From: Malacoraja senta
Taxonomy: Eukaryota
Direction of reading: 5' to 3'
Assembly: GCA_038087875.1 (NCBI GenBank)
Contig: CM075995.1
Coordinates: 1,676,001 to 1,740,000, forward strand
Length of the DNA stretch: 64,000 nucleotides
The translations under genes and the position numbers were made by a program. Under the pieces are notes generated by a model. The model ran no database searches and was not told where the DNA came from. It saw only the letters and a program-made list of their open reading frames with translations. Within the stretch, counting starts at the first letter, position 1. Each line of letters opens with the position of its first letter. Positions 3,530 to 60,789 of the stretch are shown here, in pieces.

Positions 3530-4625
3530 AATCATAGAGTCATAGTCATAGAGTGATACAGTGTGGAAACAGGCCCTTCAGCCCAACATGTCCCCAGCTA
3601 CATTGGTCCCATCTGCATCTTGGTCCACATTGGTCTACATTGGCCCCATCCCATCTTGGTCCATATCCCTCCAAACCTGTCATATCCATGTACCTGTCCA
3701 ATTATTTCTTAAACATTGGGATAGTCCCTGCCTCAACTACCTCCTCTGGCAGCTGGTTCCATACACCCACCACCCTTTGTGTGAAAAAAATACCCCTCGG
3801 ATTCCTATTAAATCTTTTCCCTTTCACCTTAAACTTATGTTCTATGGTCCTCGATTCACCTATTTTTGGGCAATAGACTGTTCATCGACTTGATCTGTTC
3901 CTCTCATGATTTTGTACACCTCTATAAGGCAATGCCTCATCCTCCTGCGCTCCATGGAATAGAGTGCCAGCCTACTCAACCTCTCCCTATAGCTCACACC
4001 CTCTAACCCTGGCAACATCCTCGTAAATCTTCTCTTATGCTGATAGAATGGAGCGGCTGGGCTTGTACTCTCTGGAGTTTAGAAGGATGAGAGGGCATCT
4101 TACTGAAACATATAAGATTGTTAAGGGTTTGGACACGCTAGAGGCAGGAAACATGTTCCCGATGTTGGAGGTATCCAGAACCAGGGGCCACAGTTTAAGA
4201 ATAAGGGGTAAGCCATTTAGAACAGGGACGAGGAAACACTTTTTCTCACAGAGAGTGGTGAGTCTGTGGAATTCTCTGCCTCAGAGGGCGGTGGAGGCCG
4301 GTTCTCTGGATACTTTCAAGAGAGAGCTAGATAGGGCTCTCAAAGATAGCGGAGTCAGGGGATATGGGGAGAAGGCAGGAACGGGGTATTGATTGGGGAT
4401 GATCAGCCATGATCACATTGACTGACGGTGCTGGCTCGAAGGGCCGAATGGCCTACTCCTGCACCTATTGTCTAATGTCTATTGTCTATTGTCTGCACTC
4501 TTTCCAGATTGACAACATCTTTCCTATAACATGGTGCCCCATAACTGAACGCAACACTCTAAATGCGGCCTCACCAACGTCTTATACAACCGCAACCTGA
4601 CCTCCCAACCTCCATGCTCAATGCT
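3530..4625 (-). mobile_element. CR1 3' fragment (HER1-like tail) with a nested CR1
   Basis: Reverse-strand ORF2 C-terminus and (CTATGA)n-type tail; interrupted at about 4036-4494. Confidence 0.8.
4036..4494 (+). mobile_element. CR1 3' fragment, (ATTGTCT)n-tail subfamily
   Basis: ORF 4048-4392 LGLYSLEFRRMRG...HFFSQRVVSLWNSLP...GYGEKAGTGY. Confidence 0.9.
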
Positions 4626-4965
4626 TGGAAATGCGACATTGGAAATGCTGGGAAACAAATACAAGGAGATTAACACTAGCTCTTCGTTCATTCACAGGAG
4701 GAATTCCACCCGGAACTAAATCTGCCTTCAGTGATTAAAAACAGAACAAGTGAAATGAAGTGATCCATGCTTGCCAACTCGTTAAGAGAAGTAGGTGACC
4801 AGCTATTTGTTCTTGGTTCATAAAACCAAAGAGGAACTGCAAATTGCAACCGTGAGCCGACTCAAGCGTAATGAGTAACTTGTATGTTTCTATATTCCCA
4901 ACTATACAAACATATTCCCATCATGAGCACAATTACAGGCACAAAGATTAAACATAGTTAAGTAT

Positions 4966-5600
4966 ACATAGAAACATAGAAAATAGGTGCAGGAGTAGGC
5001 CATTCGGCCCTTCGAGCCAGCACCGCCATTCAATATGATCATGGCTGATCATCCAAAATCAGTACCCCGTTCTTGCTTTCTCCCCATATCCCTTGATTCT
5101 GTTAGCCCTAAGAGCTATATGTAACTCTCTCTTGAAAACATCCAGTGAGTTGGCCTCCACTGCCTTCTGTGGCAGAGAATTCCACAGATTCACAACTCTC
5201 TGTGTGAAAAGGTTTTTCCTCATCTCAGTCCTAAATAGCCTACCCCTTATTCTTAAACGGTGACCCCTAGTTCTGGACTCCCCCAACATCGGAACAGTTT
5301 TCCTGCATCTAGCCTGTCCAATCCTTTAAGAATTTTATATGTGTCCATCAGAAACCCTCTCATCCTTCTAAATTCCGGTGATTACAAGCCCAGTCGACCC
5401 ATTCTTTCATCATATGTCAGTCCCATCATCCCGGGGATTAACCTGGTAAGCCTACGCTGTACTCCCTCAATAGCAATAATGTCCTTCCACAAAGTAGGAG
5501 ACCAAAACTGCTCAAAAATACTCCAGATGTGGTCTCACCAGGGCCTTGTACAACTGCAGTAGGACCCCCTTGCTCCTATGCTCAAATCGTCTCGCTATGA
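4966..5600 (-). mobile_element. CR1 3' fragment, (TTCTATGT)n-tail subfamily
   Basis: ORF 5059-5289 RTRGH...FTQRVVNLWNSLP; characteristic 3' UTR. Confidence 0.88.
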
Positions 5601-15364: not shown

Positions 15365-18300
15365 ATCTCACTGCAAGATGGCCGTTGTGTTTGGCTGCCC
15401 GTCGTCTCCCGCCTGAACAAAGACCCATTCAAGGTAATCTCTACCATTCGTATGGCCTGCAGTCAAAGCTGGCGTACGAAGGCAAACATTATTGAATATA
15501 CAAGCCTCGGCCGTCGAGGTCTTCACCCGAGTCCCCGGACCGACCACCGGACGATGCCCCACACCGAGCCGAGCCTCTGTCGTCGAGATCTTCATCTGTG
15601 GCCCCGGACTAGACCCCGGACTGGGCCTCCATCAGAGCCCCGGACTGAGCCCCGGACAAGGCTTTCCTTACCTTTCATTCCTCGCTCGGCTCCCGATGGA
15701 TGTACGGGCTCGGCCTTGTGGCGGCCGGCGCACGCACCGAGCCTGGAGGCGGAGTAAACGCGCAGGCGCCCTGGTAAGGCTGAAGAACCTCGCCCGCGCC
15801 CGTTTAACATCAACTTACCTCGCCCAGCGCGGTGAGGACGGACCTGGTCGGCCCTACCGCTCCATCCATCGACGGTCCCTCGAGCCCAGGTATGTTTTTC
15901 TCCGGTCGATCCTCCCGATCCCCGCTCTGTCGGCCCGCGGGCTCCCAGCCAGGCCCTGTGTGAAGCGCAGCGGCGTGGTCTCCCTGAACCTCCGCCCGCT
16001 GGCATGGGAGCCGCTACCGGCCCTCAACTCACCTGCAGTCCCTGCAAAAGTGGCCCTGATCACTGCGAGATCAGTGCTGAATAAAACCTTCGTCCTCAAT
16101 GACTTCTTCACCGCACGTGGATTGGACTTCCTACTGATCACTGAAACCTGACTTAATCCTGGTGAGCTTGCTCCACTCGTGGAACTCTGCCCCGATACCT
16201 GTAACTTTTTCAGCTCGCCCAGGCTCTCAGGTCGCGGTGGGGGCCTAGCCACCGTGTTTAAGAAGAATTTCAACTGCCGCCTTCTGAACGCTGATCACAT
16301 CTCCAGTTTTGAACATCAACTAATCATAGTTGGTCTAATCTGTCCGCTTTTAATTGTTCTTGTGTATCGCCCACCAAAAACGAATAAGGACTTCATCTCA
16401 CAATTTGGCTAGCTTGTTGCCCAAATTTGACCAGGTCCTGATTCTTGGTGACTTTAACATTCATGTCTGCTGTCCCACGAAGCCTCTTGTGAGTGAATTT
16501 ATGAACCTGGTTGAGTCCTTCAATCTGTCTCTACTCACCACTGGATCCACGCACAAGCTTGGCCATACACTAGACCTAGTGCTTTCGTCTGGTCTCCCAA
16601 TATGTAACATAGATATTATTGATGCCTGCCTGTCTGATCATAGTGCTATTATATTCGATATATCTCTGCCTTTCTCTCCCTCAAAATCCCATCTCCCTGA
16701 TCGCTATTCCCGCTACGTTAACTCCACGACGGCCAGTAAGTTCTCTGAGGCTCTCATAGCCGCCCCCAACATCTGCACTATTGAGGTGTCTACCCCGCAT
16801 CTCAGCACCGACGACCTCATTTCGCTATTCAATACCACCTGCTCTTCCATCCTGGATTCTGTTGCTCCTCTTAAAATGAAAAAGCCTAAGCCTAAAGGCG
16901 AGCCGTGGCTCAATGACACCACTAGAGCCCTAAGAAGAGAATGCAGAAAATCAGAACGGAAGTACAAATCTGATGCTTCAAATTTTCTTTGAACTCCTGA
17001 AAAACAATCTTCACAATTACCAGGAAGCGGTAAAATCTGCAAGAACTAAATACTTTTCCACCCTTATCTCCAAAACCGCTCATAATTCCAAGGTCCTTTC
17101 TAGCACCATCACCTCCATCATTTGTCCTGTCCCCAGCACCAGCTTAACTGGGTCCCCTGCTAAGTGCGAGGAATTTACTACATTTTTCACCAGCAAGGTA
17201 AAAAACATAAGAACAAATATTTCCCCTCCCACCCGTGACCTGGCTGTCTCATTGGTCTGCTCTTCAAAATTAGATTGTTTCCAACCCGTTACTCTAACCT
17301 CCCTTGTAAAACTGATCACCACCATGAAACCTACTACCTGCCCCCTCGACACTGTCCCCTCTGCCCTCCTAAAGGACGTAATTACAACAGCCGGTCCCAG
17401 CATCTTCGCCATCTTCAACAGTTCTCTGGCCACTGGCACTGTACCTACCTGCTTCAAGCACGCGGTGGTCCAACCACTCCTGAAAAAAAATAACCTCGAC
17501 CTCACCTTGCCAAGCATCTACAGACCCATTTCTAAACTGCCTTTCCTCTCAAAAGCCCTTAAAAAGGTAATTTTAAGTCACCTTATGCCTCACCTTCACC
17601 AAAACACTATCTTGGAAACTTTCCAATCAGGTTTCAGGGCTCACCACAGCACAGAGTCTGCCTTGTTGAAGGTACATAATGACCTACTGCTCACCGTTGA
17701 CTCCGGCGACTGTGCAATCCTGCTCCTTCTTGACCTCAGCGCAGCATTTGATACTGTCGACCACACCATCCTAATTGACCGTCTCCGGTACGGGGTTGGT
17801 ATTGATGGCACTGCCCTGAGCTGGTTCATCTCCTACCTCAAAGGTAGGAGTTTCTCGACTAACATAGGCAACTCTTTCTCCTCCCCAGCTAGCCTCTGCT
17901 GTGGGGTTCCACAAGGTTCCATCCTTGGCCCCATTCTCTTCTCCTTGTATATGCTCCCCTTAGGCCAAGTCATTGAAAGGCACGGCATTTCCTTCCATTG
18001 CTACGCAGATGATACACAACTCCATCTCCCCCTGAAGCCCAAAAACCAATCAAACCTGCTTAACCTTACCCACTGCCTCGAGGATATAAAGTGTTGGATG
18101 GCCCAGAACTTCCTCCAACTAAACGAGTGTAAGTCTGAGGTTATCCTTCTCGGCCCCTCGGACTCAATCAAAACGATAGCAGGCAGCCTTGGAAGCCTTA
18201 CCCCACTACTCAAACCTCACGTCAAAAACCTTGCCGTGATATTTGACTCAGCACTGAAATTTGACAAACAAGTCAATGCCGTGGTAAAAGCTAGCTTCTT

Positions 18301-19107
18301 TCAGCTTCGGACGATGTAATAATGTAATAATAATTGATAATATTATCAATTTAAAAATGTAAGACTGTAATGATGTTAATAGGTTGTGTACTTTTCTCCA
18401 ATAAAAAATATTTTCAAAAAAAAAAAAAAAAAAAAAAAAGGACGATAGCTAAAATAAAACAATTCCTCCACTTTGATGACCTCGAAAAGATCATCCACAC
18501 ATTTATCTCCTCCCGCCTAGATTACTGCAACTCCCTTTCCACTGGCATCAGCCAATCTTCCCTGTCCCGCCTGCAACTGGTCCAAAACGCCGCAGCGAGA
18601 CTCCTGACGGGCACCCGAAAAAGGGACCACATCACCCCGATCCTGGCCTCTCTCCACTGGCTCCCTGTGCGGTCCCGTATACATTTCAAGATCCCCCTCT
18701 ATGTCTACAAAGCCCTCAATGGGCTTGCCCCCACCTACATTAAAAGTTTTCTCACCCACCACTCCACCTCCAGGTCCCTCAGATCGGCCGACTTGGGGTT
18801 GCTGAATATCCCGCGGTCTAGGCATAAGCTCAGGGGCGACCGCGCCTTAGCGGTTGTAGCTCCTAGACTGTGGAACAGCATCCCTCTTCCCATCAGAACT
18901 GCCCCCTCCATCGACTCCTTTAAGTCAAGACTAAAAACGTATCTATACTCCCAAGCCTTTCTTGACGTCCTCTGAGTGAGGGCTATATGTATATATGTAT
19001 GTAGTTTGTTTGTTTATATTATTCTTATAACAAATGTAAAGCACTTTGGCCAACGAGAGTTGTTTTTAAAATGTGCTATATAAATAAAGGTGACTTGACT
19101 TGACTTG
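15365..19107 (+). mobile_element. Near full-length L2-clade LINE (APE endonuclease + RT), disrupted
   Basis: APE motifs (ARS..NK, LLITET, VYRPP, LGDFNIH, HTLDLV, SDH) and RT motifs ([31 protein letters not shown]); L2-type C-terminus SRLDYCN...LHWLP; (TGACT)n tail; AATG TSD; one stop and frameshifts. Confidence 0.92.
18316..18439 (+). mobile_element. Tiny poly(A)-tailed retro-insertion inside L2
   Basis: AATAAA at 18400, A-tail, GGACGAT TSD (18309-18315, 18440-18446); the L2 frame is continuous across it. Confidence 0.85.
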
Positions 19108-23747: not shown

Positions 23748-25292
<1,545 letters not shown>

Positions 25293-25848
25293 TGTTCTGG
25301 AGAAGAACAATCAAAGTCACTTCTATTCAAGAATTTCCTTTTAAACCAAAGTAACGTACTCAAAAGAAATCACATCCTCTGGATTAGTCTTCTTCTTAGG
25401 CAGAACCCGGATTGGGGAAGATCTGCTTCCAATTTCATTTTGTGAGTTATGATGACTTTGGAGAAAAGGCAGGAGAATGGGGTTGAGGGAGAAATAGATC
25501 AGCTATGATCTAATGGCAGAGCAGATTCGATGGGCTGAGTTGAAGGCTATGTCTTATGGTGGTCTAATTGGTATTGGTATTTGTTTATCATTGTTACGTT
25601 AACTGAGGTACAATGAAAAGCTTTTGTTTGCATGCTAGCAAATGTCATCAGATAAGGCTATACATCAGCACATCCGAGATACACATCGACGACAGGTAGT
25701 GCAAGAGAATAGCAGAGTGCAGAGTAAAGTGTGTACAATTTTGTAGTGTTACAGTTCCAGAGGAAAATTCCAGAGTCCACAGTGAGACAGGTTGAAAGAT
25801 CAAAACAGTTTTACTGTTTAGTAGCTCATCAAACACCACTGTTTGCTG

Positions 25849-27034: not shown

Positions 27035-28757
27035 TTACTCCAGCTTTTTGTGTCTATCTTAGGCTGGATTATAACAAATAGGAGAGTGAGTGGCGCTCTG
27101 GATATTGCTGCAGGCTTTCTTGCGACTCGTCCTGTACTCACTGCTCTACAAAGGACAGCCTTTAACTGTGAGCGACTCAAAGAGTGAGCAGGCACAGGAC
27201 TGGTCAAGTCCCGCTTCCCCTTTATTCCAACCGCCTCATTAGTTATCGAGAAATTAGATGGAATACTTAACAAACGCACCAATTCCCCAGAGGCGTCCCC
27301 CGGCTTTGAAGCCTCTTCTTGCATTGTGCCGGGGAGCACTCCACATCAGAAGCTTTCCCATGATCGTTATGCTAACCTTGCAGCGGAAACCTCGCCATTT
27401 GCATTTGAAGGAGCTAAATATTAGCCAAGGAAGAAAGGACTCCCTTTCTCGGGAGAAAAAAAAAAGCATGAGAAAAAGTTTCTTCCCACTGTTCCCCACC
27501 TTCTTGGAGCGGGCTGCGAGATTCTCAACAAGAAACAGGAAAGACCGGAGAAATCTTTCAGAGCCTGTTGCAATAAGTAAGATTGGTGAATCTTACAAGT
27601 CAATGAATTTCACACACAACTGTCCGCCCAGCTTTAAAATTTGCACTCAGATTTACTTTGGTTTAGGATAGCGCTCGTTTACGGGGCAATCGCTGGTCGA
27701 CGCGGATTTAGTAGACCGAAGGGCTTGTTTCTGTGCCGTATCTCTAAACTAAACTAACCAACACTAATCTAAACAGTGACCCAGTTCCCTGAGTTTGATG
27801 ATAAGTTTAAAGGGGATGATAGTATCTACGACACTCAGTTTTAGTTTAGTTTAGTTATGTGTTTAGAGTTACATCACAGAAACAGGCCCTTCGGCCCACC
27901 GAGTCCGTGCCGACCAACGATCCCCACAAGTTATCACTACCCTACACACACTGGGGACTATTTTGCATTTATACCAAGCCAATCAACCCACAAACCTATA
28001 CATCTTTGGATGAATCACATATTGATAGATACTTTTGACGTTCTCAATTTCTTGATTGAGCAAAAATATAATTCTAAAATAGATTTTTAAGATAGATTAA
28101 TTACAGATGTTTACCTTTTCCAATAATTATGGGTTTTTTATTTTTCGCATTGCTGCTGCAGTTTGTCATCAGGAAAAGACCTGCCACATGGATTATTTTA
28201 TCAAGTACCTGTTGCCACGTAGCTAGCTTGGACATGCTTAATTGAACAGCAAAAACTTTTAACCGAAACATTACGTGGAGTGTAACATGATAATCACCTG
28301 GTCTAATTAAACCAAACGGACAGGGCAACAATGAATCTCTTTCACTCAAGGATTAAAGTACTGTTCATTAAAAGTCCTCTGAATATGGACAGGAATGTTC
28401 CCCCCACCATTGAGTCTGCCTGCCTTTTGTCCACTTGCTGATAGAAGTCCTGAAGTTATGCTCACTTATTTATTTCCCATCATTTAAATTTGCTTCCCCA
28501 TTCACTATAACGGAATCAAATCTAATGTGAAAACGTGCTCGACATTAAATACTTGACATGTCAACGTTGATCATTGTTATTCTAAGTTATAAATTTCTCT
28601 GATATAAATCAGTTCATTATAAGTTTGATATTAAGCAATTCATTTTGAAACATATATTTTAAAAGTGCAGCAATATCTATTAAGACATACATCTAAATAT
28701 TATGTAGGTGGAAATATTTTTCTACATAATATATACACCTACATATGATGTCGATTT

Positions 28758-48810: not shown

Positions 48811-50136
48811 GTGTGGCCTCTAGTTTTAGACTCTCTTACCTTGGGGGAAAAAACTGTAATCATCCGCTTTATTTATACTTCTCTCATCTGACCCTCAACT
48901 AAATCATTGAAGTAGGTCATGAACAGCTGGGGTCCCAGAGATTGATCCCTGTGGTATCATCACGTGGCCAATCTCATCCCCACAGAAGGAATCACTCCTT
49001 GTCACAGTCTGAAATGGACGATTCCTTGTTCTGAGACCATGCCCCTCGATTTACCAGGCAGAAAATAGTCATACAGTCATACGGTGTGTAAACAGGCCCA
49101 CTTGCCCACACATGCCCAACATATCCCATCTGCACTAGGCTCACCTGCCTGCGTTTGGCCCACATTCCTCTAAACCTGCCCTATCCATGTACCTGCTAAC
49201 AGCCAGGTGCAGAGGAATAAACCTCAAAGTTGGTCTTTATGAGTTTTGAATGCGTGTAACTTAAACCAGGTTTCTCCTGCTTTACATATGACATACAACA
49301 ACCAGGAGAGCAGATGCTTTGTCCGTGGCCATAGTCTGGCCATAGGTTGTAGGAGTAGAATTAGGCTGTTCGGCCCATCATGTCTACTCCGCCATTCAAT
49401 CATGGCTGATCTATCTTTCCCTCTTAACCGCGTTCTCCTGCCTTCTCCCCATAACCCCTGACACCCTTACTGATCAAGACCACATGGGTTTCCTCCAGGT
49501 TTTCATAAGTTCTAGGAGTGGAATTAAGCTAATCGGCCTATCGAGTCTAATCCGCCATTCAATCCTGGTTGATCGATCCCCCTCTCAACCCCATTCTCCT
49601 GCCTCCTCCACACAACCCCAGACACCCGTGCCAACCAAGAATCTATCAATCTCTGCTTTAAAAATGTCACTTGTCTTGGCCTCCACAGCCATCTGTGGCA
49701 ATGAATTTCACAGATTCCCGCTCTGTGACTGAAGAAATTCCTCCTCGTCTCCTTGAAACCGTGCTCCAGTTTCCTTCCACATCCCAACGATGTGTTTGTA
49801 GGTTAATTGTCCTCTGTAAATTGCCCCTAGTGTGTAGGGAATGGATGAGAGCGTGCAATACCATAGGACTAGTGTGAACAGGTGAGTTAAATGTAGCTCT
49901 TAGGACCAACGGAATCAAGGGATATGGGGAGAAAGCAGGAACGGGGTACTGACTTCGGACAATCAGCCATGATCATATTGAATGGTGGTGATGGTTCGAA
50001 GGGCCGAATGGCCCACTCCTGCACCTACTTTCTATGTTTCTATGATAGGAGGTGTGGCCGTAGGGCCTGCATCTGTACAGTATCTCTGAACTAAACTGAA
50101 AATGATCATTTGCTAAACCACCGTTAAGCTACTGTA

Positions 50137-50319
50137 CACAAAAAAGCTGGAGAAACTCTGCGGGTGCAGCAGCATCTATGGAGCGAAGGAAATAGGCAAC
50201 GTTTCGGCCCGAAACGTTGCCTATTTCCTTCGCTCCATAGATGCTGCTGCACCCGCTGAGTTTCTCCAGCTTTTTTGTGTACCTTCGATTTTCCAGCATC
50301 TGCAGTTCCTTCTTTAACA
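50137..50319. mobile_element. Short palindromic Penelope-derived insertion with 15-bp TSD
   Basis: CGTTAAGCTACTGTA at 50122-50136 and 50320-50334; about 70-bp inverted arms centred on TTTCGGCCCGAAA. Confidence 0.82.
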
Positions 50320-58914: not shown

Positions 58915-60160
58915 ACAATAGACAATAGACAATAGGTGCAGGAGCAGGCCATTCGGCCCTTCGAGCCAGCACCGCCATTCAATGTGATCATGGCTGATCA
59001 TCCCCAATCAGTACCCCGTTCCTGCCTTCTCCCCATATCCCCTGACTCTGCTATTTTTAAGAGCCCTATCTAGCTCTCTCTTGAAAGCATCCAGAAAACC
59101 TGCCTCCACTGCCCTCTGAGGCAGAGAATTCCACAGACTCACCACTCTCTGTGAGAAAAAGTGTTTCCTCGTCTCCGTTCTAAATGGCTTACTCCTTATT
59201 CTTAAACTGTGGCCCCTGGTTCTGGACTCCCCCAACATCGGGAACATGTTTCCTGCCTCTAGCGTGTCCAAGCACTTAACAATCTTATATGTTTCAATGA
59301 GATCACCTCTCATCCTTCTAAACTCCAGAGTGTACAAACCCAGCTGCTCCATTCTCTCAGCATATGACAGTCCCGCCATCCCGGGAATTAACCTTGTAAA
59401 CCTACGCTGCACTCCCTCAATAGCAAGAATGTCCTTCCTCAAATTAGGGGACCAAAACGGCACACAATACTCCAGGTGTGGTCTCACTAGGGCTCTGCCC
59501 AACTGCAGAAGGATCTCTTTGCTCCTATATTCGATTCCTCTCGTTATGAAGGCCAACATGCCATTCGCTTTCTTCACTGCCTGCTGTACCTGCATGCTTA
59601 CTTTCATAGACTGATGTACAAGGACCCCCAGATCCCGTTGTACTTCCCCTTTTCCCAACTTGACGCCATTTAGATAGTAATCTGCCTTCCTGTTTTTGCT
59701 ACCAAAGTGGATAACCTCACATTTATCCGCATTAAACTTCATCTGCCATGCATCTGCCCACTCCCCCAACCTGTCCAAGTCACCCTGCATTCTCATAGCA
59801 TCCTCCTCACAGTTCACACTGCCACCCAGCTTTGTGTCATCTGCAAATTTGCTAATGTTACTTTGAATCCCTTCATCCAAATCATTGACGTATATTGTAA
59901 ATAGCTGCTGTCCCTGCACCGAGTCTTCTGGTACCCCACTAGTCACTGCCTGCCATTCTGAAAGGGACCCGTTAATCCCTACTCTTTGTTTCCTGTCTGC
60001 CAACCACTTCTTTAACCATGTCAGCACTCTACCCCCACTACCATGTGCCCTAATTTTGCCCACTAATCTCCTATGTGGGACCTTATCAAATGCTTTCTGA
60101 AAGTCCAGGTACACTACATCCACTGGCTCTCCCTTGTCCATTTTCCTAGTTACATCCTCA
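58915..60160 (-). mobile_element. Young 5'-truncated CR1 with an uninterrupted 377-aa ORF2 part (59008-60141)
   Basis: YLDFQKAFDKVPH, KFADDTKL, C-terminal GTGY, (ATTGTCT)n tail. Confidence 0.93.
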
Positions 60161-60215
60161 AATGTCTATTCACATTATGTCCCACATGGGATAATGTGTC
60201 TATTCACATTAATCC

Positions 60216-60771
60216 CAAAGATCCTATAGCAAGCAAGATAGCCCACTCGACGAAAAAGACGTAGTAGGGTCATGGGCAGATTCATGGGTAATCTTCTGCC
60301 CCATTTCCGTAACCGGCTTCTGTTCCCGCACTCCTATCCAAAGCAAAGATCCTATAGCAAGATACTATAGCATGCTATAGGATCTTTGATCCAAAGATCC
60401 TAGTGCAAGTTTAATACAAACATCAACTCAAACACAGCACATGAGCCACTTAAAAAAAAGTAAATTTAAAAAAAACATTAAATAAAGAAAATTGACAGAA
60501 TTATAATTTATTGACATATTAATCATTAACAAAAAATAGCAGAATTATGAATTAACAGAATTATGAATAATGGGTCTAACACTATATCACACACACACAA
60601 ACTGTTCCCCTGCAACGCTGATTACACTGCGAGAAGGATTTACAAAGTCGGGTCGGGTCGGGTTTACTAAAATGGCCGACGAAAAGGCTGACGTTCCGCT
60701 CTGTAGCGTATTACACGTCAGCCCATTGGTTTTAGCAGGAGTGCACTATCTTGCTTGCTAGAGGATATTTG
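60216..60771. mobile_element. P-superfamily-like non-autonomous DNA transposon
   Basis: 26-bp TIR CAAAGATCCTATAGCAAGCAAGATAG (2 mismatches) and perfect 8-bp TSD ATTAATCC. Confidence 0.75.
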
Positions 60772-60789
60772 ATTAATCCTGTGTTAATG

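What the first reader, a model, noticed from the sequence alone, without database searches (positions are those of the whole stretch)
60336..60396. 45-bp structure that looks like a P-element excision footprint
Seen: ATCCAAAG | CAAAGATCCTATAGCAAG (18 nt of the host TIR) + filler ATACTATAGCA + TGCTATAGGATCTTTG (16 nt of the inverted TIR) | ATCCAAAG. This is two truncated TIR ends with their own perfect 8-bp TSD, nested inside an element of the same family. Established: Drosophila P transposase makes a 17-nt staggered cut that leaves TIR overhangs at the donor site, and end-joining leaves roughly 15-18 bp of each TIR with templated filler. Inference: a family member inserted here and later excised by P-type chemistry, which would be a fossil of P/THAP9-like transposase activity in this vertebrate germ line.
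Basis: partly seen in the sequence, partly recalled or inferred. Interest (0 to 1): 0.75.

Follow-up and report, generated by a model that had tools for sequence, protein, structure and literature searches.

The report
Transposon excision scar in a ray
A 45-base scar in a shark- or ray-type genome looks like the mark left when a cut-and-paste jumping gene, probably a relative of the fruit-fly P element, left its site; similar scars in other organisms suggest these relatives cut deeper inside their own ends than the fly enzyme does.

Summary
The structure is real: 45 bp (60344-60388) of two inward-facing stubs of the host element's end plus end-derived filler, between perfect 8-bp repeats, inside a 556-bp non-coding TIR element with its own 8-bp TSD. 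0 of 100 shuffles gave one. It matches published Drosophila P excision junctions in design. The family is abundant in the four related organisms laid; two carry host plus scar, so the event is old or was copied along. A metagenome scan gave 25 double-ended cores (30-52 bp, five assemblies) with the same 12-nt end: one sister family has 8-bp TSDs, others 7-bp, the pair known from P and 1360/Galileo. In the 8-bp family 7 of 20 arms end at 24 nt and only 1 at 17. So 'P-type excision scar' is well supported, '17-nt cut' is not, and no transposase was found, so P membership is indirect. This scan noted P-like scars before in another genome.

The parts
60208..60215 (.). left 8-bp TSD of the host element
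   Evidence: identical to 60772-60779
60216..60771 (.). 556-bp non-autonomous TIR element (host); no Pfam or Rfam match
   Evidence: TIRs and TSD; relatives' contigs leave the alignment at 60215/60216 into unlike flanks (table 7)
60216..60248 (+). left TIR of the host
   Evidence: I5, 33 nt, 88% complementary to 60739-60771
60336..60343 (.). left 8-bp TSD of the scar
   Evidence: perfect repeat of 60389-60396
60344..60359 (+). left retained TIR stub, at least 16 nt; can be read to 60361 (18 nt) or 60364 (21 nt)
60360..60372 (+). filler copied from the TIR itself (TIR nt 4-16 with one mismatch, or nt 9-16 exact under the 21-nt parse)
60373..60388 (-). right retained TIR stub, 16 nt exact
60389..60396 (.). 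right 8-bp TSD of the scar
60392..60401 (+). 10-nt piece of the TIR start, probably an older stub at a deletion junction (inferred)
   Evidence: family consensus upstream of 60422 agrees with the window only from about 60402 (table 7, X4); joint 60338 to 60402 (table 5)
60739..60771 (-). right TIR of the host
   Evidence: I5
60772..60779 (.). right 8-bp TSD of the host
59008..60165 (-). flanking LINE reverse-transcriptase fragment (context; places the window among cartilaginous fishes)
   Evidence: RVT_1; best named hits ray 83% and shark 79% identity

Best explanation
A member of the same TIR family inserted into the host element and made the 8-bp TSD (inferred from the perfect flush repeat). 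Its transposase then cut it out with a long stagger inside both ends, as P transposase does, leaving single-stranded TIR tails on the chromosome (inferred). End joining trimmed the tails, copied 8-13 nt from the tail itself and sealed the break (filler origin shown; enzyme inferred, polymerase-theta-like). The scar is dead DNA, since inherited or copied as a passenger. The family is probably of the P superfamily. The cut depth is at least 16 nt and may be about 24 rather than 17.
For: Unique in the window, 0 of 100 shuffles. Same design as real P junctions, e.g. 16+11+16 with a TIR-like filler (PMC2895639 Table 1). hAT, Transib and MULE cut with the hairpin on the flank side (PMC5499845 passages), which should leave no TIR at the donor site. 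25 cores with the same 12-nt end, lengths 30-52. Sister family A: 8 of 10 have an 8-bp TSD with at most 1 mismatch, 69 of 80 positions against 20.2 expected; 8 other loci, one per shared-flank group: 30 of 56 positions at 7 bp against 13.8 expected, 11 of 64 at 8 bp. P makes 8-bp and 1360/Galileo 7-bp TSDs, hobo 99.8% 8-bp. Family A arms: 7 of 20 at 24 nt although the pattern allowed 58-bp cores; 6 of 10 junctions sit on 2-5-nt overlaps. A form with one copy of the 8-mer and no scar appears in run X8 (table 5c, 60310 to 60389).
Against: No transposase found: 0 DNA-transposase domains in 244 window ORF queries or in 100 of 140 ORFs from the 25 loci. The full TIR length of the sister families is unknown, so the 24-nt cap may be the TIR length and not a cut site; 4 of the 7 arms at 24 come from the two loci that served as reference. 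Families A and B were grouped after seeing the data; adding L067 leaves 30 of 63 at 7 bp. The shared end with the sister families is only 12-14 nt. 19 of the 25 loci come from one assembly. The target-site motif (A at -1, G-T-C at +1..+3 in 10-11 of 18 half-sites) also fits hobo. The X8 empty-site contig is one record whose extent past 60389 is not shown; it could be another family end.
Confidence: 0.72

Rival explanations
1. The family is hAT or another 8-bp-TSD group, and the stubs come from aborted gap repair or internal deletion of a nested copy, not from the transposase cut.
For: 8-bp TSD and a G-T target start also fit hobo/Hermes. The terminal five bases fit the hAT end motif as well as the P motif (recalled). 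No transposase was seen. The 24-nt cap could be the TIR length.
Against: Sister families with the same end show 7-bp TSDs. In the window both stubs stop well inside a 27-33-bp TIR. None of the 25 cores is longer than 52 bp and arms pile at fixed lengths, where aborted synthesis should give a broad spread (inference).
Confidence: 0.13
2. One complex templated insertion at a deletion junction made all 63 bp (60339-60401) in a single repair event, and the 8-bp repeat is a by-product, not a TSD.
For: All but 3 of the 63 bp are TIR pieces. One X4 contig joins 60338 to 60402 with unknown letters between.
Against: The repeat is perfect, flush with both ends and of the family's TSD length. X8 shows a form with one 8-mer and no 45 bp (table 5c). 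Sister scars carry true TSDs.
Confidence: 0.08
3. The 45 bp is a tiny mobile element that moved here as a unit.
For: It has two ends and a TSD. Three 36-bp cores of near-identical sequence sit at different sites in one assembly (L057, L061, L066). Gap patterns inside the 45 bp recur in up to 23 contigs of run X4 (table 4).
Against: One copy in the window. Sister cores come in 13 lengths between 30 and 52 bp; two of the three 36-mers are 20+20 arms on a 4-nt overlap, a product that repair would make repeatedly. P ends need inner transposase sites beyond the TIR (PMC7776569 legend). In relatives it is found within host sequence (table 8).
Confidence: 0.07

Closest known systems
Drosophila melanogaster P-element excision junctions (17-nt 3' tails; PMC2895639 section with Table 1 read; PMC7776569 passages)
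   Same: 8-bp TSD kept on both sides, two inward TIR stubs of about 16 nt, TIR-like filler of 10-15 nt, many junctions on short microhomologies
   Different: Unrelated TIR sequence; natural fossil in a cartilaginous fish; sister families keep up to 24 nt; transposase not identified
1360/Hoppel and Galileo (P superfamily; PMC3698922, PMC4168063, PMC3276498 passages)
   Same: 7-bp TSD, as in the second group of sister cores; 7- and 8-bp TSDs side by side in one clade
   Different: No sequence link tested; the passages read give no cut depth for them
Zebrafish Pdre2 / zfTHAP9 (PMC10983969, parts 1-2 of 7 read)
   Same: Vertebrate P-like element with 8-bp TSD and internally deleted copies; excises its own element in cell assays
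   Different: 13-bp TIR of other sequence; about 50 copies; reported excision products were larger flanking deletions, not TIR-stub scars
hAT elements (hobo, Hermes, Ac; PMC5499845, PMC3276498 passages)
   Same: 8-bp TSD; G-T at the start of the target
   Different: Hairpin forms on the flank, so TIR stubs are not an expected excision product; hobo TSD is 8 bp in 99.8% of insertions

Membership tests
P superfamily | 7- or 8-bp TSD | tested here: met
   8 bp for host and scar; 8 bp in sister family A, 7 bp in the other group
P superfamily | TIRs starting with CA (motif recalled) | tested here: met
   shared with hAT, so not diagnostic
P superfamily | Autonomous partner encodes a THAP + RNase H + GTP-binding P transposase | not testable with these tools
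   No genome held; no such ORF in the window or in the loci scanned; no paired ends with a TSD in 120 viral loci
P superfamily | Long staggered cut leaving TIR tails at the donor site | tested here: inconclusive
   Pattern fits, but the cap cannot be told from TIR length in the sister families
P superfamily (Drosophila P) | Cut 17 nt inside the end | tested here: inconclusive
   Window stubs 16-21 and 16 nt; sister family A arms 12-24, modes 24 (7 of 20) and 20 (6 of 20), 1 of 20 at 17
P superfamily | GTP-dependent transposition | not testable with these tools
   needs the protein
hAT superfamily | 8-bp TSD | tested here: met
   met in the window and family A; not in the 7-bp group
hAT superfamily | Excision leaves flank-derived footprints without TIR sequence | tested here: not met
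   The scar is made of TIR sequence with both TSD copies intact; expectation from PMC5499845 passages
hAT superfamily | hAT transposase in the autonomous partner | not testable with these tools
   as for P
Mobile micro-MITE | Identical dispersed copies with different TSDs | tested here: inconclusive
   one copy in the window; genome not held; sister cores mostly differ in length

The most novel reading that the evidence does not exclude
An undescribed P-superfamily lineage, marked by a conserved 12-14-nt end, has been highly active in sharks and rays and in at least one other eukaryote lineage, and its transposase cuts about 24 nt inside the ends instead of 17. Cut depth would then be a variable trait of P transposases that can be read directly from genomic scars, and the window's scar would be a trimmed 24-25-nt tail.
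Probability: 0.35. Interest if true: 0.65.

Novelty: new member of a known kind. Interest (0 to 1): 0.45.

Why it matters
The deep staggered cut has been measured for the Drosophila enzyme (17 nt); for vertebrate relatives the papers read give no cut position, and zebrafish THAP9 excised but did not integrate in cell assays. Scars with intact TSDs show that a family both inserted and excised in a fish germ line, and counting them genome-wide would give the cut depth and the repair route without bench work. The single scar has no function of its own.

Tried and rejected
No whole genome is held, so the genome-wide count could not be run; metagenome records could not be opened further. The long fish TIR gave 0 hits in metagenomes and in prokaryote genomes. 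The pattern lacked one base of the family-A end and is uninformative. The one scar-pattern hit in prokaryote genomes (L071) is a hairpin flanked by A and T runs with no TSD; it is not among the 25. No RNA holder was listed for the stretch. The unique left flank (60166-60188) had no cover in the four runs, which proves nothing, so orthologous locus and amplified subfamily could not be told apart. Gap rows inside the 45 bp (table 4) hint at 43- and 39-bp forms but may be ordinary element ends aligned there; not used as support. Summed depth is not a copy number. A 6-mer self-copy measure of filler origin was too noisy to use. A window ORF (27258-27668) had no homologues. The host taxon of the 25 loci stayed open: four unnamed hits. 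Rfam: 0. Paper searches for the TIR string (one unrelated paper, listing only), for P/THAP9 with shark, skate or chondrichthyans and for natural P-like footprints listed no description of this family or of such scars in fish; the library lacks most subscription papers and Repbase/Dfam, and no supplements were read. That P inserts into ends of resident P elements is recalled; one search was seen as a listing only.

Full report
Observation. The sequence is as described. A perfect 8-mer at 60336-60343 and 60389-60396 encloses 45 bp that start with the first 18 nt of the host's left end and finish with the reverse complement of its first 16 nt. The host is a 556-bp element (60216-60771) with 33-bp TIRs at 88% and its own perfect 8-bp TSD. 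It has no Pfam match among 16 short frames over it and no Rfam match. A scan of all 64 kb for short TSD-flanked inverted ends found this site only, and 0 of 100 shuffles produced one. The LINE fragment beside it has ray and shark proteins as best named hits (83% and 79%), so the window is from a cartilaginous fish (inference).

Anatomy. The middle of the 45 bp is TIR sequence too. It can be read as 16+13+16, 18+11+16 (one mismatch in the filler) or 21+8+16 (no mismatch, if one 4-nt repeat unit of the TIR slipped out). So this one scar fixes only that at least 16 nt of each end were kept. The right 8-mer overlaps another 10-nt piece of the TIR start (60392-60401). In run X4 the family consensus upstream of 60422 agrees with the window only from about 60402, and one contig joins 60338 to 60402. 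I infer an earlier event that left a 10-nt stub at a deletion junction, and a second insertion into that junction.

Relatives. No genome is held. Twenty of 23 listed runs hold part of the stretch, none half of it; the 14 best (share 0.29-0.43) belong to seven coded organisms. Four were laid: 4214-5469 contigs each, with summed depth of 10^5-10^6 near the ends against about 10-100 for single contigs. This shows an abundant family; it is not a copy count. In X1 and X3, contigs leave the alignment at 60215/60216 into unlike flanks (agreement 0.36-0.37), which confirms the left boundary. The main family leaves the window's interior at about 60320, and depth over the 45 bp is about 800-2500, so the scar is not in the main consensus. 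But host plus scar occurs elsewhere: X3 record 12 covers 60253-60387 with 12 substitutions and no gap, X4 record 20 covers 60284-60428 with 17 gaps, X4 record 21 covers 60342-60456, and X4 record 19 reaches 60368 (under the 31-letter bridging limit). One X8 contig runs from host sequence into 60389 without the 45 bp, the expected empty form, though its extent is not shown. Only 32 of 19683 pieces were listed, so these are not counts. The excision is therefore older than the split from these organisms or was copied along in a subfamily; I could not tell which.

Sister scars. A metagenome scan for 12 nt of the end, 4-34 free bases and the inverted 12 nt gave 25 loci from five assemblies (19, 2, 2, 1, 1). 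The long fish TIR gave none, so these are other families. The DNA looks eukaryotic (DUF4517, tetraspanin, PHD and RT matches, most below curated cut-offs); the taxon stayed open. Core lengths run from 30 to 52 bp. Ten loci share a longer end (family A): 8 of 10 have an 8-bp TSD with at most one mismatch, one has a 9-bp repeat, one none; 69 of 80 positions match against 20.2 expected. Of the other 15, two groups of four share flanks, i.e. scars carried inside repeats, as in the window. Taking one per group and setting L067 (8-bp) apart leaves 8 loci with 30 of 56 matches at 7 bp against 13.8 expected and no excess at 8 bp; with L067 it is 30 of 63. The flank consensus of the 30-bp group gives a perfect 7-bp repeat. 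The grouping was made after seeing the data.

Arm lengths. In family A the 20 arms are 12, 16 (3), 17, 18, 19, 20 (6) and 24 (7); six of ten junctions lie on 2-5-nt overlaps, one on 1 nt, three have 1-4 nt of filler. L051, outside family A, is 24+4+24. The pattern allowed cores of 58 bp and none passed 52. This is what a fixed tail of about 24 nt with microhomology joining would give. Against it: four of the seven 24s come from the two reference loci, and with no full-length element in hand, 24 may be the TIR length.

Mechanism. Drosophila P is cut at the 3' end and 17 bp inside on the other strand (PMC7776569, passages). The donor keeps 17-nt tails, and sequenced junctions keep both TSD copies, 10-17 nt of TIR on many ends, and fillers that resemble the TIR, including 16+11+16 (PMC2895639, passages and the section with Table 1). 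The window's scar has this design. hAT, Transib and MULE form the hairpin on the flank (PMC5499845, passages), so they should leave no TIR behind. P makes 8-bp and 1360/Galileo 7-bp TSDs, while hobo is 8 bp in 99.8% of cases (PMC3698922, PMC3276498, PMC4168063, passages). Shown here: TSD, stubs, filler origin, sister scars and their TSD lengths. Inferred: insertion then excision, the staggered cut, the repair enzyme, and kinship of the fish and sister families, which rests on 12-14 shared terminal bases.

What is missing. No transposase: none in 244 ORF queries from the window, 100 of 140 ORFs from the sister loci or viral contigs. The target motif fits P and hobo alike. So it works like a P excision scar (0.72), while membership in the P superfamily is likely but rests on indirect features, and a link to THAP9 is untested.

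Novelty. P footprints are known from fly experiments, and vertebrate P-like elements from zebrafish (PMC10983969, parts 1-2 of 7). Ten paper searches listed no account of this family or of such scars in sharks and rays; a vertebrate TE survey (PMC4350176, passages) has no occurrence of 'P element' in its main text. Repeat databases, subscription papers and supplements were not seen and may hold the family. Verdict: real, a new member of a known kind, interest 0.45. The bolder reading, a widespread P lineage that cuts about 24 nt deep, has probability 0.35.

Noticed in passing
window 50134-50282: Near-perfect palindrome: two 74-nt arms, 99% complementary, 1 nt apart, apparently two head-to-head pieces of a common repeat.
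   Followed up: partly
window 60392-60401: Second TIR stub at what looks like a deletion junction, overlapped by the scar's right TSD; suggests two events of the same family at one spot.
   Followed up: partly
L049, L053, L056, L069: A repeat of about 1.0-1.4 kb at 73-86% identity carries the same 51-bp scar; in L049 it lies beside an ORF piece matching DUF4517.
   Followed up: partly
L046, L048, L063, L064: A diverged repeat family carries a 30-bp scar with a 7-bp TSD in its consensus.
   Followed up: partly
L071 10001-10047: Bacterial hairpin with the same 14-nt arms, flanked by A and T runs, no TSD; looks like a terminator and a chance match.
   Followed up: yes
window 16354-18975: Long LINE with endonuclease and reverse-transcriptase frames in pieces.
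   Followed up: no
window 24327-25369: About 1 kb of a four-base simple repeat.
   Followed up: no
window 60163-60211: 15-nt perfect direct repeat, 34 nt apart, just left of the host element (D18).
   Followed up: no
window 27258-27668: 137-codon frame without Pfam match or homologues among longer proteins.
   Followed up: partly
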